A DNA stretch of 64,000 nt from Escherichia phage LPEK22. The notes under the pieces were generated by a model. The model did no database searches and was not told where the DNA came from. It saw only the letters and a list, made by a program, of their open reading frames with translations. Both the position numbers and the translations under genes were made by a program. Every line of letters starts with the position of its first letter. Positions within the stretch are counted from its first letter, which is position 1. The stretch is from sequence record OK283619.1; one strand, given 5' to 3'. Below are positions 1-24,457 of the stretch, in pieces.

Positions 1-3000
1 CCTTCCCCTACGCGTATTGGGGATTCCGTTACTATTTGTGATGCTTATGGGAAATTTGCCACTTACCCATTGACCGTGTCTCCTTCTGGAAATAATTTGT
101 ATGGCTCCACTGAAGACATGGCTATAACAACTGATAACGTATCAGCAACGTTCACTTGGTCTGGACCTGAACAAGGTTGGGTTATCACATCCGGCGTCGG
201 TCTTGGCCAAGGCCGTGTCTACAGTCGTGAAATCTTTACACAAATTTTGGCGTCTGAAACAAGTGCTGTCACTCTCAATACTCCACCAACAATCGTGGAC
301 GTGTATGCTGACGGAAAACGTCTTGCGGAATCCAAATATTCACTAGATGGGAATGTAATCACTTTCAGTCCTTCTTTGCCAGCCAACACAGAACTTCAGG
401 TGATTGAATATACTCCGATTCAATTGGGTAATGGCGGTGGTTCTGGTTCTTCTACGATTACCTGGGTCTATAATGGGGGTTCAGCGATTGGCGGTGAAAC
501 CGAAATCACGTTAGACATCGTTGTTGATGATGTTCCGGCCATTGATATAAACGGAAGTCGCCAGTATAAAAATCTGGGGTTCACATTCGATCCATTAACC
601 AGTAAAATCACTCTTGCGCAAGAACTGGATGCAGAGGATGAAGTTGTTGTAATTATCAATGGAACGCCAAACATCTATAATCAAATTGATTATACTTTGC
701 GGGAAGTGGCTCGTGTAACCAATGTTAAAGATACAGAGGTCGTTTATTTTAGTGTTGGTGCTGTGTTAAGCGGGTATAAAGTTATCTACGATAAAATAAC
801 ACAGAGATCATATTTTATTCCAGAGTTACCGACTGGAACCACGGCAGTCAGCCTTAGTTCTTCGGCTGTGCTTGTACATTCTGCTGGTAGTGTTGATCTG
901 GGCGCATTAGCTGTATCTCGTGAAGAATATGTTACCTTGGCTGGGACATTTGATTCTGGTGCTGTCATCAATACTAAAAATGAATTACTCACCCATACTG
1001 ATGGAAAGTATCGTTGGGATGGTACACTTCCTAAAACTGTAGCTGCTGGCTCAACACCTGCAACAACTGGAGGCGTTGGTTCGGGAGCGTGGTTGAGTGT
1101 TGGTGATGCCACTGCCCGCCAGTGGGTAGCTAATAATTATATCAATAGTAAATTCGAGAAGTTTGGGTCTTTCTTGCAAGGTTCAGTTTTAACCACCAAC
1201 GAGCAAGCTCTTGTTGATTCAAGTGGTCTTTTCTGGGTTAAATATGGTGCTATACAAAGTGGTGGTTATACAGTAGCGCCGGGAACTGTTCCAGACTATC
1301 CCGATTTTTACTGTGTTGGATATTTAACAGATTATGATTGGCAGTCTGTTACAAACTGGGGTGCTGATAACAACTATTCTATCGCAGATAAGATCGGTGT
1401 AGACGCGGTCGATGCTATAAACCTCGCAGGTTATCATGCGGAGAAACGTGCGGAACTATTCGGATCCCAGCAAGTTGTCATGGTTCCTGCTGGCACTTAT
1501 CTGTTGGATAAAACGACTCTTGTGGAAGGCACGGCGCATGGTCTGACTATTTATCGTAATCAGGAAGTTATGATTTTTCTTCGCAACAACGTTACTTTCA
1601 TCGGCGATGGCGACGCAACGTTACTGTATGTTGCCGATGGTGTTGTTGAGCGCAATAAGGAAAACGGGGGCACTAAAGGCTTTGTAGTTTTCGGTGATGG
1701 TATTCGTGAAATTCAGAACGCATATGTCCACGATATGCTAATTGATGAAAATGGTGACAATAACCTTGTCCCGCCATTGAACTGGTCTGGAGCACAAGCT
1801 CATTGTCCAGCAGTAGCTTGTTACGAAGGTAGTAATGGTGTGACTGTTTCTGGAGTTAACGTCAAGAATGCTCCTGGTGCAAACGTAATGGTATTCCAGG
1901 AAGCTCAGGCAGCGTTCAACAGCTACAATACGCGTGTAGAGAATTGCAACTTCTATCGCGTTGCTGACGCTGTGACTGGAAACAGTAACCTAATAGACCA
2001 CTCATCAATAAGAATTCATTCCGATGGCTACGTTATAAATAACGTTAAATGTATCCAGCCAACCATGTCAGACATGTGTACGGTATTTGAGTGTCATGGT
2101 AATGGGATCGTTGATGGATGCATCACCAAAAAAGCTCGCTACCCATTCCTGAAGGCTAACGACGGTGCTACATCGACATCTATAGTCACCTTCACAAATA
2201 ACGTCTGTGAGGACGCAGGTAGTGCTTTGGTTCTGGATACCGTACCTAACGTTACAACTGTTGCCAGATTTATTGGTAATACTGTAACGCTACGATCAGA
2301 AAAGCAAGTTATCGGGTATCCTAATACTGCGGCATTCACAACACAGCAGCCGTCTGTTTTGTCATCTGACCCAACCACTATTAATGCAATTATTTACTCT
2401 GCAAATAATAACATATTGCAAAAAAACAGAGCCGCAGATTGGACAACTGAACAAAAAGCTGCAAACGTTGCTTATGACCTGGACTATTTCAAAGAAGTTG
2501 TTAGTGAAAATAACACTTTCTCAGGTTTTTGGGGGTGTGTTCGCTTGGGTAAACAAAAAACAGGTGCTACTTTCAACAGCAATGACTCTTTTGTCTCTTG
2601 CGGGACCAACGGTTCACCTCAATTATCAGACAACACAGCCATAAGGTTTACCAATAAATTTGCCAACGATTATCTTGTTCACCTTGATGAAATGCATATT
2701 AAATGGAATATGACAAAATGTCAGTTTGGTGGTGTCCTGGGTTTATTGCAACAAGCAGCAGGAGTGACTGTTGGTGTTGTGCAATTCACTGCTGATATTA
2801 AAACAGATAGATGGATGCATCCAGCGCTTGGGATAGCTCCACTATCCGTACAGGATTACTACTTCAACATTGATGTATACAGTGATGTGAATACCAGTGA
2901 ACCTTTATACGGATACGCTGGTATTCATGGGCAAATTAATGTTGACTCGCCAACTCAACCATATGTTAAACAATTTTACAAATACAAACCAAACACCCAG

Positions 3001-18556: not shown

Positions 18557-19237
18557 ATGAGCAATATGTCAGAAAGGTTACTCGCCACGCTTGATGCAGT
18601 GACCGCCCGAGACGAAGTCGGGAAGGAGGCGATGGAGGCTGTCGCCCCTCGTCCAGGTATTGACTTCGATGAAAATACAGGTGAATGGTTTGGTGAACGT
18701 CCGGAAGGGTATCAGCCGATTCCTGAACCTCCTTCATTGGAGGATATTGCTTCCAAGGAATCCAAAGTACCTGAGTTTGCGGACACTGATGCTACAACGG
18801 ATTACAAACGGATACGCGACACAACATATGCCATGCAAGAAGCCACAATGTTCATGATGGGACAAGCCGCTAAATTGGCTGCATCCACAGAAGCTCCGCG
18901 AGCATTTTCTGTTTTCCGTGAATTGGGTGAACTCATGCGCGGTCTGAATAAAGACTTGATGGAAAACCAGAAAACCATCAAGGCAGTAACAGGTGATAAA
19001 GAACCACCTGTTGATGACACGACAGTGGATGTTACAACTTCACCAGACGGAACAACAACAGTATCGGTTGGGAAAAAGGCGCGATCTTCTCGCGATTTAT
19101 TGAAGACGATTGAAGATGCCCGCCGTCGCGCTGAAGAAAGATCACAAGCAAAGGCCGCACAACAACCAGAAGATGAAATCATTGATGGTGAAACAGTTGA
19201 TGTGAAGGAAGAAGACGATGGCGTATCAGAAGCGTGA
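18557..19237 (+). CDS. Terminase small subunit, T4 gp16-like
   Basis: ATG at 18557 after RBS ggagga (track start at 18551 is TTG). Position immediately upstream of, and overlapping, the large terminase. Weak similarity to T4 gp16. Confidence 0.65.
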   Translation: MSNMSERLLATLDAVTARDEVGKEAMEAVAPRPGIDFDENTGEWFGERPEGYQPIPEPPSLEDIASKESKVPEFADTDATTDYKRIRDTTYAMQEATMFMMGQAAKLAASTEAPRAFSVFRELGELMRGLNKDLMENQKTIKAVTGDKEPPVDDTTVDVTTSPDGTTTVSVGKKARSSRDLLKTIEDARRRAEERSQAKAAQQPEDEIIDGETVDVKEEDDGVSEA

Positions 19238-21428
19238 TATAGAATATGCCCCAATTAAAACGGGGTTCAAAATAGACGATGTGAAATTGCGTATGGACCA
19301 AACGTTCATGCGCAAACCTTCTGTGCGTGCTCCCCGAGTCGAGTTAATGCTGACAGATGAACAAGAAGACGAATTCGTTGAATGTTCAATGGACGCGCAT
19401 TACTTCGCCGCCAACTATTACAAGATAACCACGATCGATAAAGGCTTTATCCTTTTCGATATGCATGATTATCAGAAGCAGTTGTTCCATGACTTTCAGG
19501 ACTATCGATTCAATGCGGTCGTCCAGGCTCGTCAGTCCGGTAAATGCGTCCGTGGTGATACTCTTGTTTATGTCTATGATACAATCAGTCAACAAGAGTT
19601 GCATCTCACCATAGAAGAGCTTCACAAGCGCTTCGAAGGACCTAACCATGCTGTGCCACTGAATACCATTGGCAACCACAATAAGTTTGTAGACAGCCGT
19701 TTCGGGAAACGATATTTTGTTGAGTCCGACACTGGCTGGGTTCCGGTTATTGCCGCTCATAAAACGAAAGAATACGCTGAATACGTTGTCAGGACTGAAA
19801 CCGGACGCACAATTCATGTCGCAGATGAGCACATGTTCTTCAATGAATATGGGCGCGAAGTATTTGCTAAAGACATGGAGGCCGGAGATGCCATAATGAC
19901 CCAGGAGGGAATAGAATTCATCTCTGAGATCTGGGAGACTGGTGAGTACCACCACATGTATGACTTGCAAGTCAAGTCCAGCGATCAACGTTATTACACG
20001 AATGGGTTCCTCAGCCATAATACCACGGTCGTGGCTGCGTTTCTTCTTTGGTATGCGATGTTCCACTCAGACAAAGAAATCGCGGTACTGGCAAACAAAG
20101 AGAAACAAGCGATTGAAATTCTTGACCGTATCAGGAAGGCGTATCAGGACCTCCCATTCTTCCTTCAGCAGGGTTGTGAGAAGTTTGGTTCTACACTGAT
20201 AGAGTTTGAGAACGGCTCTAAGATATATGCTTATGCAACGTCTTCGGACTCTATTCGTGGTCGTTCTGTATCTCTCTTGTACGTGGACGAAGTAGCGTTC
20301 ATCGAAAATGACTTTGAATTTTGGGAATCAACATTCCCAGCGATCGCATCTGCTGATACTTCACGTTGTATCCTGACCAGTACTCCGAAAGGCCAGCGAG
20401 GGTTGTTCTACGATATCGTTACAAAAGCCGACCCACGCCATCCACAATACAACGATTTCCATCTTACCGAAGTCCCTTGGTACAAGGTTCCGGCGTACAC
20501 CAAAGACCCTGATTGGGAAACCAAACAACGCGCTCGTCTGGGGGATGCTCGTTTCGATCAAGAATTTGGCATTAAGTTCCGTGGTTCCGTGGGTTCATTG
20601 ATTCCGGCCAAATGCTTAGATAAAATGACGTCCAAGTTGTATCGGGAACCTAATGAATTCACCAAGATTTATAAGGAATACGACCCACAACGTCTCTACT
20701 TTGGGATTGCGGACACTGGGAAGGGGGTGGAAGGAGATTATTCCGTCTTAACAATTCTGGATATAACTGAATATCCGCATGTCATAGCAGCCAAGTACAG
20801 GAATAACACGATACCTCCTATGATGTATGCATACACGATAGCTGATATGTGCACCGAATACGGGGAATGCCCTGTCCTTGTTGAAACAAACAACGACGTC
20901 GGTGGACAGGTTATCACGATCTTGTATCAAGAAATTGAGTATCCAGAGATCATATTCACGTCGACGGATAACAAAGGGACAGGGAAACGGATTGGTGGTC
21001 GTAAACCAGAGCCAGGCATTAACACCAACAGGAAAGTGCGATCTATTGGTTGTGCTAACCTGAAAGCGCTTATTGAGAAAGAAATGTTGGTGATCGAAGA
21101 CCAAGACACGATAGATGAACTCAGCACATTCGTGTTCCGTGGTGCGCGTTATGAAGCAGATGATGGATGCCACGACGACTGCGTTATGCCGTTGGTATTA
21201 TATTCTTGGGCAGTTAAACAAGAATGGTTCAGTGATCTGACTTCTACCAGTATTTCTCAAGACATGAGAAATAGAATGTCTTCGACTGAGTCACAACAAG
21301 TATTCCCGTTTGGTGGTTTAGTCGTGGGAGACACTCCATCTGGAACTGAGCATCTCCCTGGGTTCGGTGGTGTTCAAGTCTTCGACGAACGTTCAGGGAT
21401 GACAATGGACGAGTGGTTTAAGAATTGA
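19218..21428 (+). CDS. Terminase large subunit, T4 gp17-like, interrupted by an in-frame mini-intein
   Basis: Exteins join as ARQSGK|TTVVAAFLLW, matching the T4 gp17 Walker A (SRQLGKTTVVAIFL). Downstream ATPase and nuclease regions are colinear with gp17. Confidence 0.9.
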   Translation: MAYQKRDIEYAPIKTGFKIDDVKLRMDQTFMRKPSVRAPRVELMLTDEQEDEFVECSMDAHYFAANYYKITTIDKGFILFDMHDYQKQLFHDFQDYRFNAVVQARQSGKCVRGDTLVYVYDTISQQELHLTIEELHKRFEGPNHAVPLNTIGNHNKFVDSRFGKRYFVESDTGWVPVIAAHKTKEYAEYVVRTETGRTIHVADEHMFFNEYGREVFAKDMEAGDAIMTQEGIEFISEIWETGEYHHMYDLQVKSSDQRYYTNGFLSHNTTVVAAFLLWYAMFHSDKEIAVLANKEKQAIEILDRIRKAYQDLPFFLQQGCEKFGSTLIEFENGSKIYAYATSSDSIRGRSVSLLYVDEVAFIENDFEFWESTFPAIASADTSRCILTSTPKGQRGLFYDIVTKADPRHPQYNDFHLTEVPWYKVPAYTKDPDWETKQRARLGDARFDQEFGIKFRGSVGSLIPAKCLDKMTSKLYREPNEFTKIYKEYDPQRLYFGIADTGKGVEGDYSVLTILDITEYPHVIAAKYRNNTIPPMMYAYTIADMCTEYGECPVLVETNNDVGGQVITILYQEIEYPEIIFTSTDNKGTGKRIGGRKPEPGINTNRKVRSIGCANLKALIEKEMLVIEDQDTIDELSTFVFRGARYEADDGCHDDCVMPLVLYSWAVKQEWFSDLTSTSISQDMRNRMSSTESQQVFPFGGLVVGDTPSGTEHLPGFGGVQVFDERSGMTMDEWFKN
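19545..20021 (+). mobile_element. Mini-intein (159 aa) inserted between the Lys and Thr of the terminase P-loop
   Basis: Begins with Cys (CVRGDTLVYVYD), ends with His-Asn (NGFLSHN), +1 residue is Thr. Contains a TxxH-type block B (GRTIHVADEH). No LAGLIDADG or HNH endonuclease domain evident. Confidence 0.85.
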
Positions 21429-21480: not shown

Positions 21481-23376
21481 ATGGCAACTCAAAGCTTCAG
21501 CGTTGCGCCGTCCGTTCAGTGGACTGAGCGTGATGCCACGCTTCAGACGTCCCCGTCCGTTGTTGTTCAGGGCGCGACCGTCGGCAAATTTCAATGGGGT
21601 GAAGTTGAACTTCCAGTGCTGGTGACTGGTGGTGAGACAGGTTTGGTGAAGAAATTCTTCAAACCCAACGACAGTACTGCGACAGATTTCCTTGTGATTG
21701 CAGACTTTTTGTCTTACAGCTCTATGGCATGGGTGACTCGTGTTGTTGGTCCTCTGGCCAAGAACTCTGTCACCAAAGGCCAGACAGCCATCACGATCAA
21801 AAACAAGCTGGATTTTGAAACAGCAAGTCCGTCAGCGTCTATCACTTGGGCTGGTCGTTATCCAGGTTCCCTGGGTAATGATATTGCTATCAATGTTTGT
21901 GACTCCGCTGGATTTCCGACCTGGGAATTCCGCAACAACTTTGCGTACGCACCTCAGTCTGGTGAATTCCATGTTGTGGTTGTAGACAAAGTTGGGCGCA
22001 TTACTGACTCTGAAGGCGCAGTCGGTCAGGTTGATCGTATATCTGTTTCTGGCACGGCAACTGCAGCTGGCACCATCAGTGTGGCAGGTGAAGATATTGC
22101 ATATCTGGATACTGATACTCCGGCCACTTTGGCGACCAAAATCGGCGCGGCGCTGACGGCGCTGACAGATGTTTATTCTTCTGTCGTTGTTAAGTCTAAC
22201 ACTGTCATCGTGACCCATAAAGCTATTGGTCCCCAGACAGTTACTGCTATTGTTCCAGATGATAAGGGGCTGACTGCAACCGCCGTGATTACCACTGTTG
22301 GCGCATCTGGTTCTATTATCGAAAAATACGAACTCATGCAGAACACACAGGGTTCCAAAAAGTCCGATGGCGCGAATGCGTACTTCAAAGATGTCATCAA
22401 TGATACATCAAATTGGGTGTACACCTTCGCTACCGCTCTGGCCGCAGGTGTTGTTGAATTAGAAGGCGGCGTAGACGATTATAACATCAACCGCGTGGCG
22501 GCTATCCAAGTCTTGAACAATGCCGAAGCATATGATGCGAAGCCAGTATTTGCATACTGTGAAGAGTTGATTGAGCAACAAGCATTGATCGACTTATCTA
22601 CTGAGCGAAAAGATACAGTATCTTTCGTATCCCCGCTCCGTGATACGGTTGTTGGCAACCGTGGTCGTGAAATGGATGATGTCGTTGCTTGGCGTGAAAG
22701 CCTTGTTCGCGACTCTTCTTATTTCTTCATGGATGATAACTGGGCATATGTGTACGACAAGTACAACGACAAAATGCGTTGGATTCCGGCTTGTGGTGGC
22801 ACCGCAGGTGTTTGGGCGCGAAGCATTGAAATCGCGGGTATCTACAAATCTCCGGCGTTCCACAACCGTGGTAAATACAACAACTATAATCGAATGGCGT
22901 GGTCTGCGTCTTCTGATGAACGTGCTGTGTTGTACCGCAATCAGATCAACAGCATCGTAACCTTCTCCAATGAAGGCATCGTCCTGTATGGTGACAAAAC
23001 TGGCCTGACCCGCCCGTCGGCGTTTGACCGTATCAACGTTCGTGGCCTGTTCATCATGGCTGAGCAGAACATCGCCGCAATCGCCAAATACTATCTTGGT
23101 GAGAACAATGACGCGTTTACACGTAGTCTGTTCAGCAATGCGGTTCGTCCATATATTCGCCAGCTGGCAAATATGGGCGCGATTTACGATGGTAAAGTCA
23201 AGTGTGATGAAGATAACAACACTGCTGATGTCATTGCGGCAAACCAAATGGTTGCTGGTATCTGGTTGAAGCCTGAGTACAGCATAAATTGGGTGTATCT
23301 TGACTTTGCTGCAGTTCGACCAGATATGGAGTTCAGCGAAATCGAATCCGGTGGCGGCATCGTTGCTGCTTCATAA
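21481..23376 (+). CDS. Tail sheath protein, T4 gp18-like
   Basis: YDKYNDKMRWIP and LYGDKTGLTRPSAFDRINVRGLF match T4 gp18 motifs as recalled. ATG at 21481 with RBS gaagga (track start at 21448 is TTG). Confidence 0.9.
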   Translation: MATQSFSVAPSVQWTERDATLQTSPSVVVQGATVGKFQWGEVELPVLVTGGETGLVKKFFKPNDSTATDFLVIADFLSYSSMAWVTRVVGPLAKNSVTKGQTAITIKNKLDFETASPSASITWAGRYPGSLGNDIAINVCDSAGFPTWEFRNNFAYAPQSGEFHVVVVDKVGRITDSEGAVGQVDRISVSGTATAAGTISVAGEDIAYLDTDTPATLATKIGAALTALTDVYSSVVVKSNTVIVTHKAIGPQTVTAIVPDDKGLTATAVITTVGASGSIIEKYELMQNTQGSKKSDGANAYFKDVINDTSNWVYTFATALAAGVVELEGGVDDYNINRVAAIQVLNNAEAYDAKPVFAYCEELIEQQALIDLSTERKDTVSFVSPLRDTVVGNRGREMDDVVAWRESLVRDSSYFFMDDNWAYVYDKYNDKMRWIPACGGTAGVWARSIEIAGIYKSPAFHNRGKYNNYNRMAWSASSDERAVLYRNQINSIVTFSNEGIVLYGDKTGLTRPSAFDRINVRGLFIMAEQNIAAIAKYYLGENNDAFTRSLFSNAVRPYIRQLANMGAIYDGKVKCDEDNNTADVIAANQMVAGIWLKPEYSINWVYLDFAAVRPDMEFSEIESGGGIVAAS

Positions 23377-23384
23377 AAATGACC

Positions 23385-23411
23385 AACCCCGCTTCGGCGG
23401 GGTTTTCCTTT
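23385..23411 (+). terminator. Rho-independent terminator after the sheath gene
   Basis: ccccgcttcggcgggg hairpin plus T-run. Confidence 0.8.
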
Positions 23412-23434
23412 GTCTTATTGATTTGAGTTATTGA

Positions 23435-23893
23435 ATGATATACGCATACAAAATTGAAACGATAACTAATGGAAAGGTCTACATCGGTGTGACCAATCAC
23501 CCACAACGAAGATATGATCAGCATTTTGCGAATGCTTTTCATCATGGAGTCCAAAGTGAATTGTATGATGCTATGCGTAAGTATGGAACATCTGGATTTA
23601 CTTTCGTTGTAATTGCTCAGACCGATGAAGTCCATAAATGGGAATTAGAGAAGCAACTCATCGCTCAATATAATTCTTATGAGATGGGTTACAACATGAA
23701 TAAAGGCGGTAATGATGGAAGTCATATGCTGGGTAAAACTGCAGCAAAATTGACATCCACAGGTGAACACATTGGTCTTGTTTCTCTCATAGATCCCCGT
23801 TGGGAATTGTGTGAAATCGAACCTGTTTCAAGTAATGTTCATCATGGTTTCGATCTTTCTTCCATGAAGATTAAAAGATTGACGACTAATTAG
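23435..23893 (+). CDS. Free-standing GIY-YIG homing-endonuclease-like protein (152 aa)
   Basis: N-terminal IYAYKIETITNGKVYIGVTNHPQRRYDQH carries the GIY...YIG...R...H core. Inserted between the sheath and tube genes, downstream of a terminator. Confidence 0.7.
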   Translation: MIYAYKIETITNGKVYIGVTNHPQRRYDQHFANAFHHGVQSELYDAMRKYGTSGFTFVVIAQTDEVHKWELEKQLIAQYNSYEMGYNMNKGGNDGSHMLGKTAAKLTSTGEHIGLVSLIDPRWELCEIEPVSSNVHHGFDLSSMKIKRLTTN

Positions 23894-23923
23894 AATTGTG
23901 TACTCTTATTTGGAGATATAAAA

Positions 23924-24457
23924 ATGGCGACAGTCAATGAGTTTCGCGCAGCCATGTCACGAGGGGGCGGCGTACAACGCCAACACCGCTGGCGTGTGAC
24001 TGTAAACTTTCCTTCTTTTGTTGCTGGTTCCGACACAATTCGTGACGTGTCCTTGCTGGCTGTAACCACCAACACCCCAACAGGTCAGCTGGGCGAAATT
24101 CTGGTGCCCTGGGGTGGTCGTGAACTTCCGTTCCCAGGGGATCGTCGTTTCGAAGCGCTTCCTGTGACGTTCATTAACGTGGTGAACAACGCTCCATACA
24201 ATGCTTTTGAAGTGTGGCAGCAATTCATCAACGGTAGTGAAAACAACCGCGCCAGCGCGAATCCAGATGATTATTTCCGTGATATCATCATGGAACTTCT
24301 GGACGCGAATGACAACGTGACTAAGACATGGACTTTACAGGGCGGCTGGCCTCAAAACCTCGGCCAACTGGAACTCGATATGTCGGCAATGGACTCTTAC
24401 ACACAGTTCACTGTCGACTTGCGTTATTTCCAAGCCGTTTCTGACAAGTCATTGTAA
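23924..24457 (+). CDS. Tail tube protein, T4 gp19-like
   Basis: C-terminal WTLQGGWPQNLGQLELDMSAMDSYTQFTVDLRYFQA parallels T4 gp19 (GLWPTNVGELQLDWDS...FEVTLALDYWE). RBS tggagat. Confidence 0.8.
   Translation: MATVNEFRAAMSRGGGVQRQHRWRVTVNFPSFVAGSDTIRDVSLLAVTTNTPTGQLGEILVPWGGRELPFPGDRRFEALPVTFINVVNNAPYNAFEVWQQFINGSENNRASANPDDYFRDIIMELLDANDNVTKTWTLQGGWPQNLGQLELDMSAMDSYTQFTVDLRYFQAVSDKSL

What the first reader, a model, noticed from the sequence alone, without database searches (positions are those of the whole stretch)
23435..23893. Free-standing GIY-YIG endonuclease between the sheath and tube genes
The ORF starts with a recognisable GIY-YIG core (IYAYKI...NGKVYIGVT...RR...H) and sits in its own gap between two essential, normally adjacent tail genes, directly after the sheath terminator. 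This is the usual arrangement for a homing endonuclease. At 152 aa it is short and may lack a separate DNA-binding domain.
Basis: partly seen in the sequence, partly recalled or inferred. Interest (0 to 1): 0.5.

Follow-up and report, generated by a model that had tools for sequence, protein, structure and literature searches.

The report
Short GIY-YIG homing-type nuclease gene
The ORF is a real GIY-YIG (I-TevI/Seg-type) nuclease gene in the gap between the tail sheath and tail tube genes of a Kuttervirus phage; it is already annotated as such in public records, and the only new detail is that it is an old, shortened but selectively maintained version of the longer homing endonucleases that occupy the same gap in related phages.

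Summary

The window is a Kuttervirus (99.9% to Salmonella phage moki). There the identical protein is already annotated as a putative GIY-YIG or homing endonuclease.

In Ackermannviridae this junction holds one of several contents:
- empty (Ag3, Bue1)
- this short form 'A' (about 199 of about 278 records)
- 228-245-aa forms 'B' and 'C'
- B+A in tandem
- a roughly 590-aa opposite-strand endonuclease

The left and right borders are shared by the empty, A, B and C alleles compared. That fits a free-standing homing endonuclease site.

Form A is an internal-deletion derivative of a full-length enzyme. It lacks about 75 residues that include the putative helix-turn-helix. It keeps one copy of a 34-residue 'TGE..G.V...DPRW.TGEI' module.

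A is not decaying. dN/dS is about 0.09, its synonymous divergence equals that of the flanking genes, and it sits at the same site in three genera.

Cleavage and homing are untested. Already known; low interest.

The parts
21481..23376 (+). Tail sheath gene (gp18-like), upstream flank. The mechanical ORF starts at TTG 21448; homologues are annotated from the ATG at 21481.
   Evidence: Pfam Phage_sheath_1C E=2.5e-13; PHROG 23 tail sheath E=1e-113. Start chosen by comparison with annotated homologues.
23385..23404 (+). Intrinsic-terminator-like hairpin after the sheath gene (AACCCCGC-TTCG-GCGGGGTT followed by TTCCTTTG).
   Evidence: The equivalent hairpin is annotated as a terminator in phages May, Menlow and Mutine. 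It is also present at empty junctions.
23435..23893 (+). 152-aa GIY-YIG nuclease ORF, allele 'A' of the junction (coordinates include the stop codon).
   Evidence: 100% identical protein in phage moki and others, annotated as putative GIY-YIG or homing endonuclease.
23435..23719 (+). Catalytic GIY-YIG domain, residues 1-95. Y5, Y16, R26, H30, E72 and N87 correspond to I-TevI Y6, Y17, R27, H31, E75 and N90.
23726..23827 (+). Single copy of the 34-residue 'G-K-x-A-A-x-L-x-S-T-G-E-x-I-G-x-V-S-L-x-D-P-R-W-x-L-C-E-I' module, residues about 98-131. Proposed residual DNA-contact element.
   Evidence: The same module occurs 3-7 times in tandem in metagenomic proteins with unrelated N-terminal regions matching HNH- or GIY-YIG-type endonuclease families. 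It is predicted as a three-stranded beta unit with pLDDT about 87-91. It is the most constrained part of the protein, dN/dS 0.02-0.05. No Pfam, NCBIfam or PDB-sequence match.
23828..23893 (+). C-terminal tail, residues 132-152 plus stop. F139-x8-R148-L-T-T is homologous to the extreme C-terminus of the long forms (F-x8-RL-N-T-T-GWQLIRIV). It marks the internal deletion of about 75 residues.
   Evidence: Protein alignment, DNA alignment of the 3' ends and junction listing. Constraint is more relaxed here, dN/dS about 0.2-0.26.
23885..23894 (+). ACTAATTAGA, conserved in every allele compared, including the empty junctions. It forms the right border of the insertion and supplies the stop codon of this ORF.
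   Evidence: Invariant columns in alignment A4. Unique in the window.
23894..23923 (+). 30-nt spacer with the tube gene ribosome-binding site (GGAG at 23912-23915).
   Evidence: Read directly from the sequence. The same spacer follows the empty junction of Ag3.
23924..24457 (+). Tail tube gene (gp19-like), downstream flank.
   Evidence: PHROG 45 tail tube E=6e-57; Pfam Phage_T4_gp19, weak.

Best explanation
The ORF encodes a free-standing, Seg/I-TevI-type GIY-YIG DNA endonuclease. It belongs to a lineage of homing endonuclease genes that occupies the intergenic gap between the sheath terminator and the tube gene in Ackermannviridae.

This allele, called 'A' here, derives from a full-length enzyme of about 230 aa by an internal deletion. 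The deletion removed the linker and putative helix-turn-helix domain. It left the complete catalytic domain, one 34-residue beta module and the last ~14 residues of the original C-terminus.

Shown here:
- the fold and catalytic residues
- presence/absence and allelic replacement at shared borders
- the deletion architecture
- strong purifying selection
- residence at the same site in three genera

Inferred, not shown: the protein is made at a low level from read-through of the sheath terminator in the late operon. In mixed infections it nicks or cuts the corresponding region of related phages carrying another allele or an empty site. Recombinational repair from its own genome would then favour inheritance of its own sheath-tube region (homing or marker exclusion, as for T4 Seg proteins). 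With only the small beta module for DNA contact, its sequence specificity is expected to be relaxed.
For: Family:
- Pfam GIY-YIG E=1e-10 and PHROG 5123 over full length.
- Profile alignment to the I-TevI catalytic domain, with Y/Y/R/H/E/N conserved and invariant in 48 homologues.
- AF2 model mean pLDDT 86.5.

Contents found at the junction:
- Empty in Ag3 and Bue1.
- A in Kuttervirus, Taipeivirus May, Miltonvirus Kevin and three metagenomic contigs, always between sheath and tube.
- B in pertopsoe and Coodle.
- C in Menlow and BRM13314.
- B+A in tandem in S118 and L010.
- A roughly 590-aa opposite-strand endonuclease in Mutine and PP35.
- The empty, A, B and C alleles compared share the left border ('..ttgaa' before the ATG) and the right border (ACTAA[T/A]TAGA).

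Frequency: about 199 records carry A, against about 278 records with an enterobacterial-type tube gene.

Exchange at the locus: S118 carries B together with an Aglimvirinae-type terminator. It also has about 500 bp of elevated divergence in the 3' end of the sheath gene (8-21 mismatches per 100 bp, against 0-1 downstream).

Not decaying:
- dN/dS 0.088 (window-May) and 0.086 (L008-L010).
- dS 1.34 for the ORF, against 1.29 for sheath and 1.56 for tube.
- The catalytic domain and the beta module are the most constrained parts.
- Length is conserved at 151-156 aa down to 54% identity.
Against: - No nuclease activity, target site or homing event has been demonstrated for this protein or any close relative. 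Literature searches found none.
- The recognisable DNA-binding domain of its full-length relatives is missing. By established knowledge of I-TevI, the isolated catalytic domain binds DNA poorly.
- Synonymous divergence equal to the flanks, and strict positional conservation, indicate vertical descent rather than recent mobility at genus level.
- No ectopic copy was found in the window or in other records.
- Near-fixation within Kuttervirus leaves few empty targets for classical homing.
Confidence: 0.6

Rival explanations
1. Domesticated ('stranded') nuclease. After losing the HTH domain the gene stopped being mobile. It is kept because it benefits the phage in some other way. One option is relaxed-specificity cutting of unmodified host DNA or differently modified competitor DNA, as T4 EndoII (a 136-aa GIY-YIG protein without a separate binding domain) does. 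The phage's own hypermodified thymidines would protect its genome.
For: - Strong purifying selection, and synonymous divergence equal to the flanks.
- Same site in three genera with no ectopic copies.
- No HTH.
- Ackermannviridae DNA carries hypermodified thymidine (review PMC8472413).
Against: - The closest sequence and structure relatives are I-TevI-type homing enzymes, not EndoII.
- Its sister alleles at the same borders are full-length homing-type enzymes.
- It lies in the late structural operon behind a terminator with no sigma-70-like promoter in front. That is poor timing for host DNA shut-off.
- The junction is still polymorphic, so targets for homing or exclusion do exist.
Confidence: 0.27
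2. Non-functional remnant: a homing endonuclease gene crippled by loss of its DNA-binding domain and on its way to decay.
For: Internal deletion of about 75 residues relative to the full-length alleles. Low G+C and a weak ribosome-binding site.
Against: - dN/dS is about 0.09 at dS above 1.
- No frameshifts or stops in any of about 199 records or in metagenomic homologues down to 54% identity.
- Catalytic residues are invariant.
- The retained beta module has dN/dS 0.02-0.05.
Confidence: 0.04
3. A non-cleaving or partner-dependent role. The short protein might act only together with another factor, for example the long B enzyme when the two are in tandem. Alternatively it might act as a DNA- or RNA-binding regulator or antagonist at the junction, such as interfering with invasion by B or C alleles.
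For: Tandem B+A arrangements exist in two genera. The beta module is the most conserved part of the protein.
Against: Most genomes carry A alone. All six catalytic residues are invariant, which argues for retained catalysis. No evidence for any partner was found.
Confidence: 0.07

Closest known systems
I-TevI (phage T4 td intron endonuclease; PDB 1LN0/1MK0 catalytic domain)
   Different: This gene is not intron-encoded. It lacks the zinc finger, minor-groove helix and HTH of the I-TevI DNA-binding domain. TIGR01453 scores 47 bits, below the 56 cut-off, and covers only the catalytic part.
T4 Seg proteins (SegA-G), free-standing GIY-YIG homing endonucleases
   Same: A free-standing GIY-YIG gene in an intergenic gap between conserved genes, variably present among relatives. 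The CBA120 record annotates the orthologue as 'putative homing endonuclease SegD'. The proposed mode of action follows what is established for SegB, SegF and SegG: cutting a related co-infecting genome, with preferential inheritance of the region.
   Different: Shorter than the 228-245-aa alleles at the same junction, and lacking their C-terminal HTH-containing segment. No activity data. At genus level it appears vertically inherited. The Pfam SegE_GIY-YIG model does not match this ORF.
Long GIY-YIG alleles at the same junction: B (pertopsoe_20, Coodle AYN55524, S118 'TevI-like') and C (Menlow gp185, BRM13314_00126)
   Same: Same insertion borders. 42-44% (B) and 58% (C) identity over residues 4-131, including the DPRW module. 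Homologous extreme C-terminus.
   Different: They carry about 75 extra residues with a putative HTH: weak Pfam HTH_28 and DUF2089-HTH hits in the C-type protein P0010. C-type P0010 reaches the TIGR01453 cut-off.
Free-standing endonucleases catalogued in phage LIMEstone1 (F-LimI to F-LimXI; Adriaenssens et al. 2012, PMC3296691)
   Same: That paper already records a mobile element (F-LimVIII, ORF145) between ORF146 (sheath) and ORF144 (tube) of an Ackermannviridae phage.
   Different: F-LimVIII is a Hef-like enzyme on the opposite strand, matching the roughly 596-aa ORF in PP35. It is not this GIY-YIG protein.
T4 endonuclease II (DenA)
   Different: Clearly more distant than I-TevI. No sequence-family match. 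EndoII is an early gene that degrades host DNA, whereas this ORF sits in the late structural operon.

Membership tests
GIY-YIG nuclease superfamily (Pfam PF01541) | Profile match above the curated threshold | tested here: met
   42.2 bits against a cut-off of 22.6, E=1e-10, residues 2-87.
GIY-YIG nuclease superfamily (Pfam PF01541) | Catalytic residues: Tyr of 'GIY', Tyr of 'YIG', Arg, His, metal-binding Glu, Asn | tested here: met
   Y5, Y16, R26, H30, E72 and N87 align with I-TevI Y6, Y17, R27, H31, E75 and N90. They are invariant in alignments of 12 and 48 sequences.
GIY-YIG nuclease superfamily (Pfam PF01541) | GIY-YIG alpha/beta fold | tested here: met
GIY-YIG nuclease superfamily (Pfam PF01541) | Nuclease activity | not testable with these tools
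   Needs biochemistry.
Group I intron endonuclease, I-TevI family (TIGR01453) | Full-length profile match above the cut-off, including the C-terminal DNA-binding region | tested here: not met
   47 bits against a cut-off of 56.05. Only profile positions 5-93 of 215 are matched.
Group I intron endonuclease, I-TevI family (TIGR01453) | Encoded within a self-splicing intron | tested here: not met
   The ORF lies between two complete genes, after a terminator. Empty junctions are simple 77-78-nt spacers.
Free-standing homing endonuclease gene (Seg-like) | Own ORF in an intergenic region between conserved genes | tested here: met
   Lies between sheath and tube, with spacers of 58 and 30 nt.
Free-standing homing endonuclease gene (Seg-like) | Presence/absence polymorphism with defined borders among related genomes | tested here: met
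   Empty, A, B, C, B+A and other contents were found; the empty, A, B and C alleles compared share their borders.
Free-standing homing endonuclease gene (Seg-like) | Separate sequence-tolerant DNA-binding domain (HTH / NUMOD-type) | tested here: not met
   No Pfam domain in residues 91-152. The HTH-containing segment of alleles B and C is deleted. Only one 34-residue beta module remains.
Free-standing homing endonuclease gene (Seg-like) | Evidence of horizontal spread or co-conversion of flanks | tested here: inconclusive
   For allele A, dS equals the flanks, which indicates vertical descent. Within the Serratia-phage group there is a mild incongruence: the sheath groups L008 with L011, while the nuclease groups L008 with L010. 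For allele B there are signs of import with the upstream flank in S118.
Free-standing homing endonuclease gene (Seg-like) | Cleaves the endonuclease-lacking allele near the insertion site and biases inheritance | not testable with these tools
   Needs cleavage assays and phage crosses.
PHROG 5123 ('homing endonuclease with GIY-YIG motif') | Full-length profile match | tested here: met
   E=3.9e-93, positions 1-152 of 152.
T4 EndoII (DenA)-like host-DNA nuclease | Closest relationship to EndoII and an early-gene context | tested here: not met

The most novel reading that the evidence does not exclude
The short allele is a minimal, domesticated GIY-YIG nuclease that has survived since before the split of Kuttervirus, Taipeivirus and Miltonvirus because it benefits the phage, for example by excluding co-infecting relatives or cutting unmodified DNA. 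Its only DNA-contact element would be one unit of a so far undescribed 34-residue tandem-repeat DNA-binding module ('TGE..G.V...DPRW.TGEI'). That module is used in arrays of 3-7 copies by metagenomic proteins whose N-terminal regions match different endonuclease families (HNH-type and GIY-YIG-type).
Probability: 0.3. Interest if true: 0.5.

Novelty: already known. Interest (0 to 1): 0.2.

Why it matters
As a gene call it adds nothing. The identical protein is already annotated as a GIY-YIG or homing endonuclease in many Kuttervirus records, and mobile endonucleases at this junction were listed for Ackermannviridae in 2012.

The comparative picture has modest value. It offers a natural series at a single locus: empty, full-length, internally deleted, tandem and replaced. 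The HTH-less form is clearly under selection. That makes it a convenient system for asking what keeps a 'crippled' homing endonuclease alive, and what the minimal DNA-targeting requirement of a GIY-YIG enzyme is.

The 34-residue repeat could interest people who engineer modular DNA-binding proteins, if it proves to bind DNA.

Tried and rejected
1. The conserved ACTAA(T/A)TAGA at the right border as a late-promoter motif. CTAAWTAG occurs only once in the 64-kb window, which is no more than chance, so it is not a general promoter element. Its conservation remains unexplained.

2. Recent gene conversion between the tandem B and A copies in S118, suggested by the identical peptide LTSTGEHIGLV. The DNA differs at most synonymous positions, so the identity reflects constraint, not conversion.

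4. The first AF2 model, built from 9 sequences, was poor (mean pLDDT 54.6, C-terminus below 50). It was replaced by a 48-sequence model.

5. Other copies of this family in the window: none. Ten other unassigned or opposite-strand ORFs showed no endonuclease family.

6. Literature. 'Kuttervirus' plus 'GIY-YIG' gave 0 papers. 'DPRW' plus 'endonuclease' gave nothing relevant.

7. A sigma-70-type promoter between the terminator and the ORF: none found.

Full report
**1. The observation**

The ORF is at 23435..23893 on the + strand.

- It matches Pfam GIY-YIG at 42.2 bits (cut-off 22.6, E=1e-10).
- It matches PHROG 5123 'homing endonuclease with GIY-YIG motif' over all 152 positions (E=4e-93).
- The upstream gene is the tail sheath, the downstream gene is the tail tube, and the portal follows.
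- A strong terminator-like hairpin lies at 23385..23404, straight after the sheath stop.
- G+C falls to 0.38-0.40 over the ORF, against 0.45-0.53 in the flanking sheath and tube genes.

**2. Source of the window and existing annotation**

The region is 99.9% identical to Salmonella phage moki and other Kuttervirus phages (Ackermannviridae).

- The identical protein is annotated there as 'putative GIY-YIG endonuclease' or 'homing endonuclease with GIY-YIG motif'.
- The CBA120 record calls the orthologue 'putative homing endonuclease SegD'.
- A 2012 paper on phage LIMEstone1 lists a mobile endonuclease, F-LimVIII, between ORF146 (sheath) and ORF144 (tube) (PMC3296691).
- A review notes 14-25 homing endonuclease genes per Aglimvirinae genome, of unclear role (PMC8472413).
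- I found no experimental work on this protein.

**3. Catalytic domain**

- A profile of the family aligns with the I-TevI catalytic domain. Y5, Y16, R26, H30, E72 and N87 match I-TevI Y6, Y17, R27, H31, E75 and N90.
- These residues are invariant in 48 homologues.
- The AlphaFold model built on 48 sequences has mean pLDDT 86.5.

**4. The junction is a multi-allelic endonuclease site**

Fetching the sheath-tube junction from relatives gave six states.

| State | Where found | Calls |
|---|---|---|
| Empty, 78- and 77-nt spacers | Agtrevirus Ag3, Nezavisimistyvirus Bue1 (more distant Vibrio phages also appear to have adjacent genes, from hit coordinates only) | 9, 53, 55 (7, 43) |
| Short form 'A', 151-156 aa | Kuttervirus, Taipeivirus May, Miltonvirus Kevin, metagenomic contigs L008, L010, L011 | 20, 24-26, 54 |
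| Form 'B', 228-245 aa | pertopsoe, Coodle | 10, 11 |
| Form 'C', 230 aa | Menlow, BRM13314 | 21, 46, 48 |
| B followed by A | S118, L010 | 12, 25 |
| ~590-aa opposite-strand endonuclease | Mutine, PP35 | 22, 70 |

In the phage collection, about 278 records have an enterobacterial-type tube gene. About 199 carry A. About 46 carry a B-type protein at 60% identity or more.

The empty, A, B and C alleles compared share borders. On the left is the terminator followed by '...ttgaa' before the ATG. On the right is ACTAA(T/A)TAGA, about 30-40 nt before the tube ATG. Both borders are present and directly adjacent (0-4 nt apart) in the two empty junctions.

**5. What the short form is**

- A is 42-44% identical to B and 58% identical to C over residues 4-131.
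- B and C then continue with about 75 residues that A lacks. This segment has the pattern NAKRF.L.SP.G.E...GN......LGL.YS, with weak HTH_28 and DUF2089-HTH hits in the C-type protein P0010.
- All forms end in a homologous tail of F-x8-RL-(N)TT.
- The DNA confirms this. A reads AAAAGATTGACGACTAATTAG. C reads GCTAGATTGAATACCACGGGTTGGCAACTAATTAGAATTGTGTAA. The A allele of contig L008 still reads through to the same TAA as B and C, ending in ...NRIV.

So A is an internal-deletion derivative of a full-length, C-like enzyme.

**6. What A retains**

Residues about 98-131 (GKTAAKLTSTGEHIGLVSLIDPRWELCEIEP) are one unit of a 34-residue repeat.

- The exhaustive HMMER search found the repeat in 3-7 tandem copies in metagenomic proteins. 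Their N-terminal regions are unrelated to one another and match HNH- or GIY-YIG-type endonuclease families. The spacing is exactly 34 residues in P0054 and P0033.
- The unit is modelled as three short beta strands with pLDDT about 87-91.
- It has no Pfam, NCBIfam or PDB-sequence counterpart.

Its occurrence behind different nuclease-type regions, and as an array, suggests a DNA-contact module. That is an inference.

**7. Is the short form alive?**

Yes, by every sequence test.

- Between the window and Klebsiella phage May, dN/dS is 0.088, and dS is 1.34. That dS is the same as for the sheath (1.29) and the tube (1.56).
- Between two Serratia-type contigs, dN/dS is 0.086.
- By segment, dN/dS is 0.06-0.10 for the catalytic domain, 0.02-0.05 for the beta module and about 0.2-0.26 for the tail.
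- Length and reading frame are intact down to 54% identity, and always at this site.

The gene is therefore old: it predates the split of three genera. At that scale it has been inherited with its flanks and kept by purifying selection. It is not a fresh invader and not a decaying remnant.

**8. Evidence for exchange at the locus**

This evidence concerns allele B rather than A.

- Kuttervirus S118 carries B upstream of A, together with the terminator variant typical of Aglimvirinae.
- S118 also shows about 500 bp of raised divergence in the 3' end of the sheath gene, at 8-21 mismatches per 100 bp. The A gene and the tube are nearly identical to the window.
- In pertopsoe, divergence from the window is confined to about 23200-23950 and drops to 0-1% in the tube gene.
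- B and C alleles come with their own downstream spacer and tube start (ATGAGT instead of ATGGC[G/T]).
- Other mosaic patches exist elsewhere in these genes, so this evidence is supportive rather than decisive.

**9. Mechanism**

The best-supported reading is a Seg-like free-standing GIY-YIG endonuclease with reduced DNA-binding capacity.

- It would be expressed at a low level by read-through of the sheath terminator. There is no sigma-70-like promoter between the terminator and the ATG, the Shine-Dalgarno sequence is weak, and the start codon lies in a predicted hairpin.
- It would act on related co-infecting genomes that carry another allele.

Only the fold, the residues, the polymorphism, the deletion and the selection are shown. 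Expression, cleavage, target and inheritance bias are inferred from what is established for T4 Seg enzymes.

The main rival is domestication into a phage-beneficial nuclease of relaxed specificity, analogous to T4 EndoII. This fits the vertical inheritance, the missing HTH and the hypermodified phage DNA. It fits less well with the late-operon position and with the clearly closer relationship to I-TevI-type enzymes.

**10. Verdict**

The gene is already annotated in public records and belongs to a well-known kind.

The added value is limited to three points: the allelic series at this junction, the demonstration that the HTH-less form is under strong selection, and the incidental 34-residue repeat.

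Interest is low.

Noticed in passing
window 23726..23827 (one unit); proteins P0012, P0016, P0019, P0023, P0028, P0033, P0054, P0109: A 34-residue tandem repeat (consensus G-K-x-A-A-x-x-x-x-T-G-E-x-L-G-x-V-S-x-x-D-P-R-W-K-T-G-E-I-V). It occurs in 3-7 copies behind unrelated N-terminal regions (matching HNH- or GIY-YIG-type endonuclease families) in metagenomic proteins. It has no Pfam, NCBIfam or PDB-sequence match and is predicted as a small three-stranded beta unit. It may be an undescribed modular DNA-binding repeat of homing endonucleases.
   Followed up: partly
window 19545..20021 (within the large terminase gene 19218..21428): The large terminase subunit carries a 159-aa mini-intein (Cys1 ... 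His-Asn, +1 Thr) inserted in the Walker A loop (ARQSGK|C...SHN|TTVV). Pfam Intein_splicing matches only weakly, at 27 bits below the cut-off. Terminases of the same length, or with the same faint Pfam intein hit, are seen in related loci.
   Followed up: partly
window 23885..23894; aligned positions in L001, L002, L003, L005, L006, L008, L012, L013: ACTAA(T/A)TAGA is invariant about 30-40 nt upstream of the tube start in every allele, including the empty junctions. It provides the stop codon, or the last codons, of the different endonuclease ORFs. It is unique in the window, so it is not a general promoter motif. The reason for its conservation is unexplained.
   Followed up: partly
L007 2145..3920 (Mutine) and L014 958..2748 (PP35), both on the minus strand: A different occupant of the same sheath-tube junction: an opposite-strand ORF of about 590-596 aa annotated as a homing endonuclease. 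It is probably the Hef-like F-LimVIII of LIMEstone1. In Mutine it is accompanied by a 120-aa hypothetical ORF.
   Followed up: no
L004 (S118) 1..2143 compared with window 22900..23500: In S118 the long B-type endonuclease comes with the terminator variant of Aglimvirinae and about 500 bp of elevated divergence in the 3' end of the sheath gene. This looks like a co-conversion tract from import of the B allele.
   Followed up: partly
L010 1..107: In the metagenomic Serratia-type contig L010, a NUMOD3-containing ORF (293 aa, cut at the locus end) lies directly upstream of the large terminase. This is probably another free-standing endonuclease, at the position where LIMEstone1 has F-LimIX.
   Followed up: no
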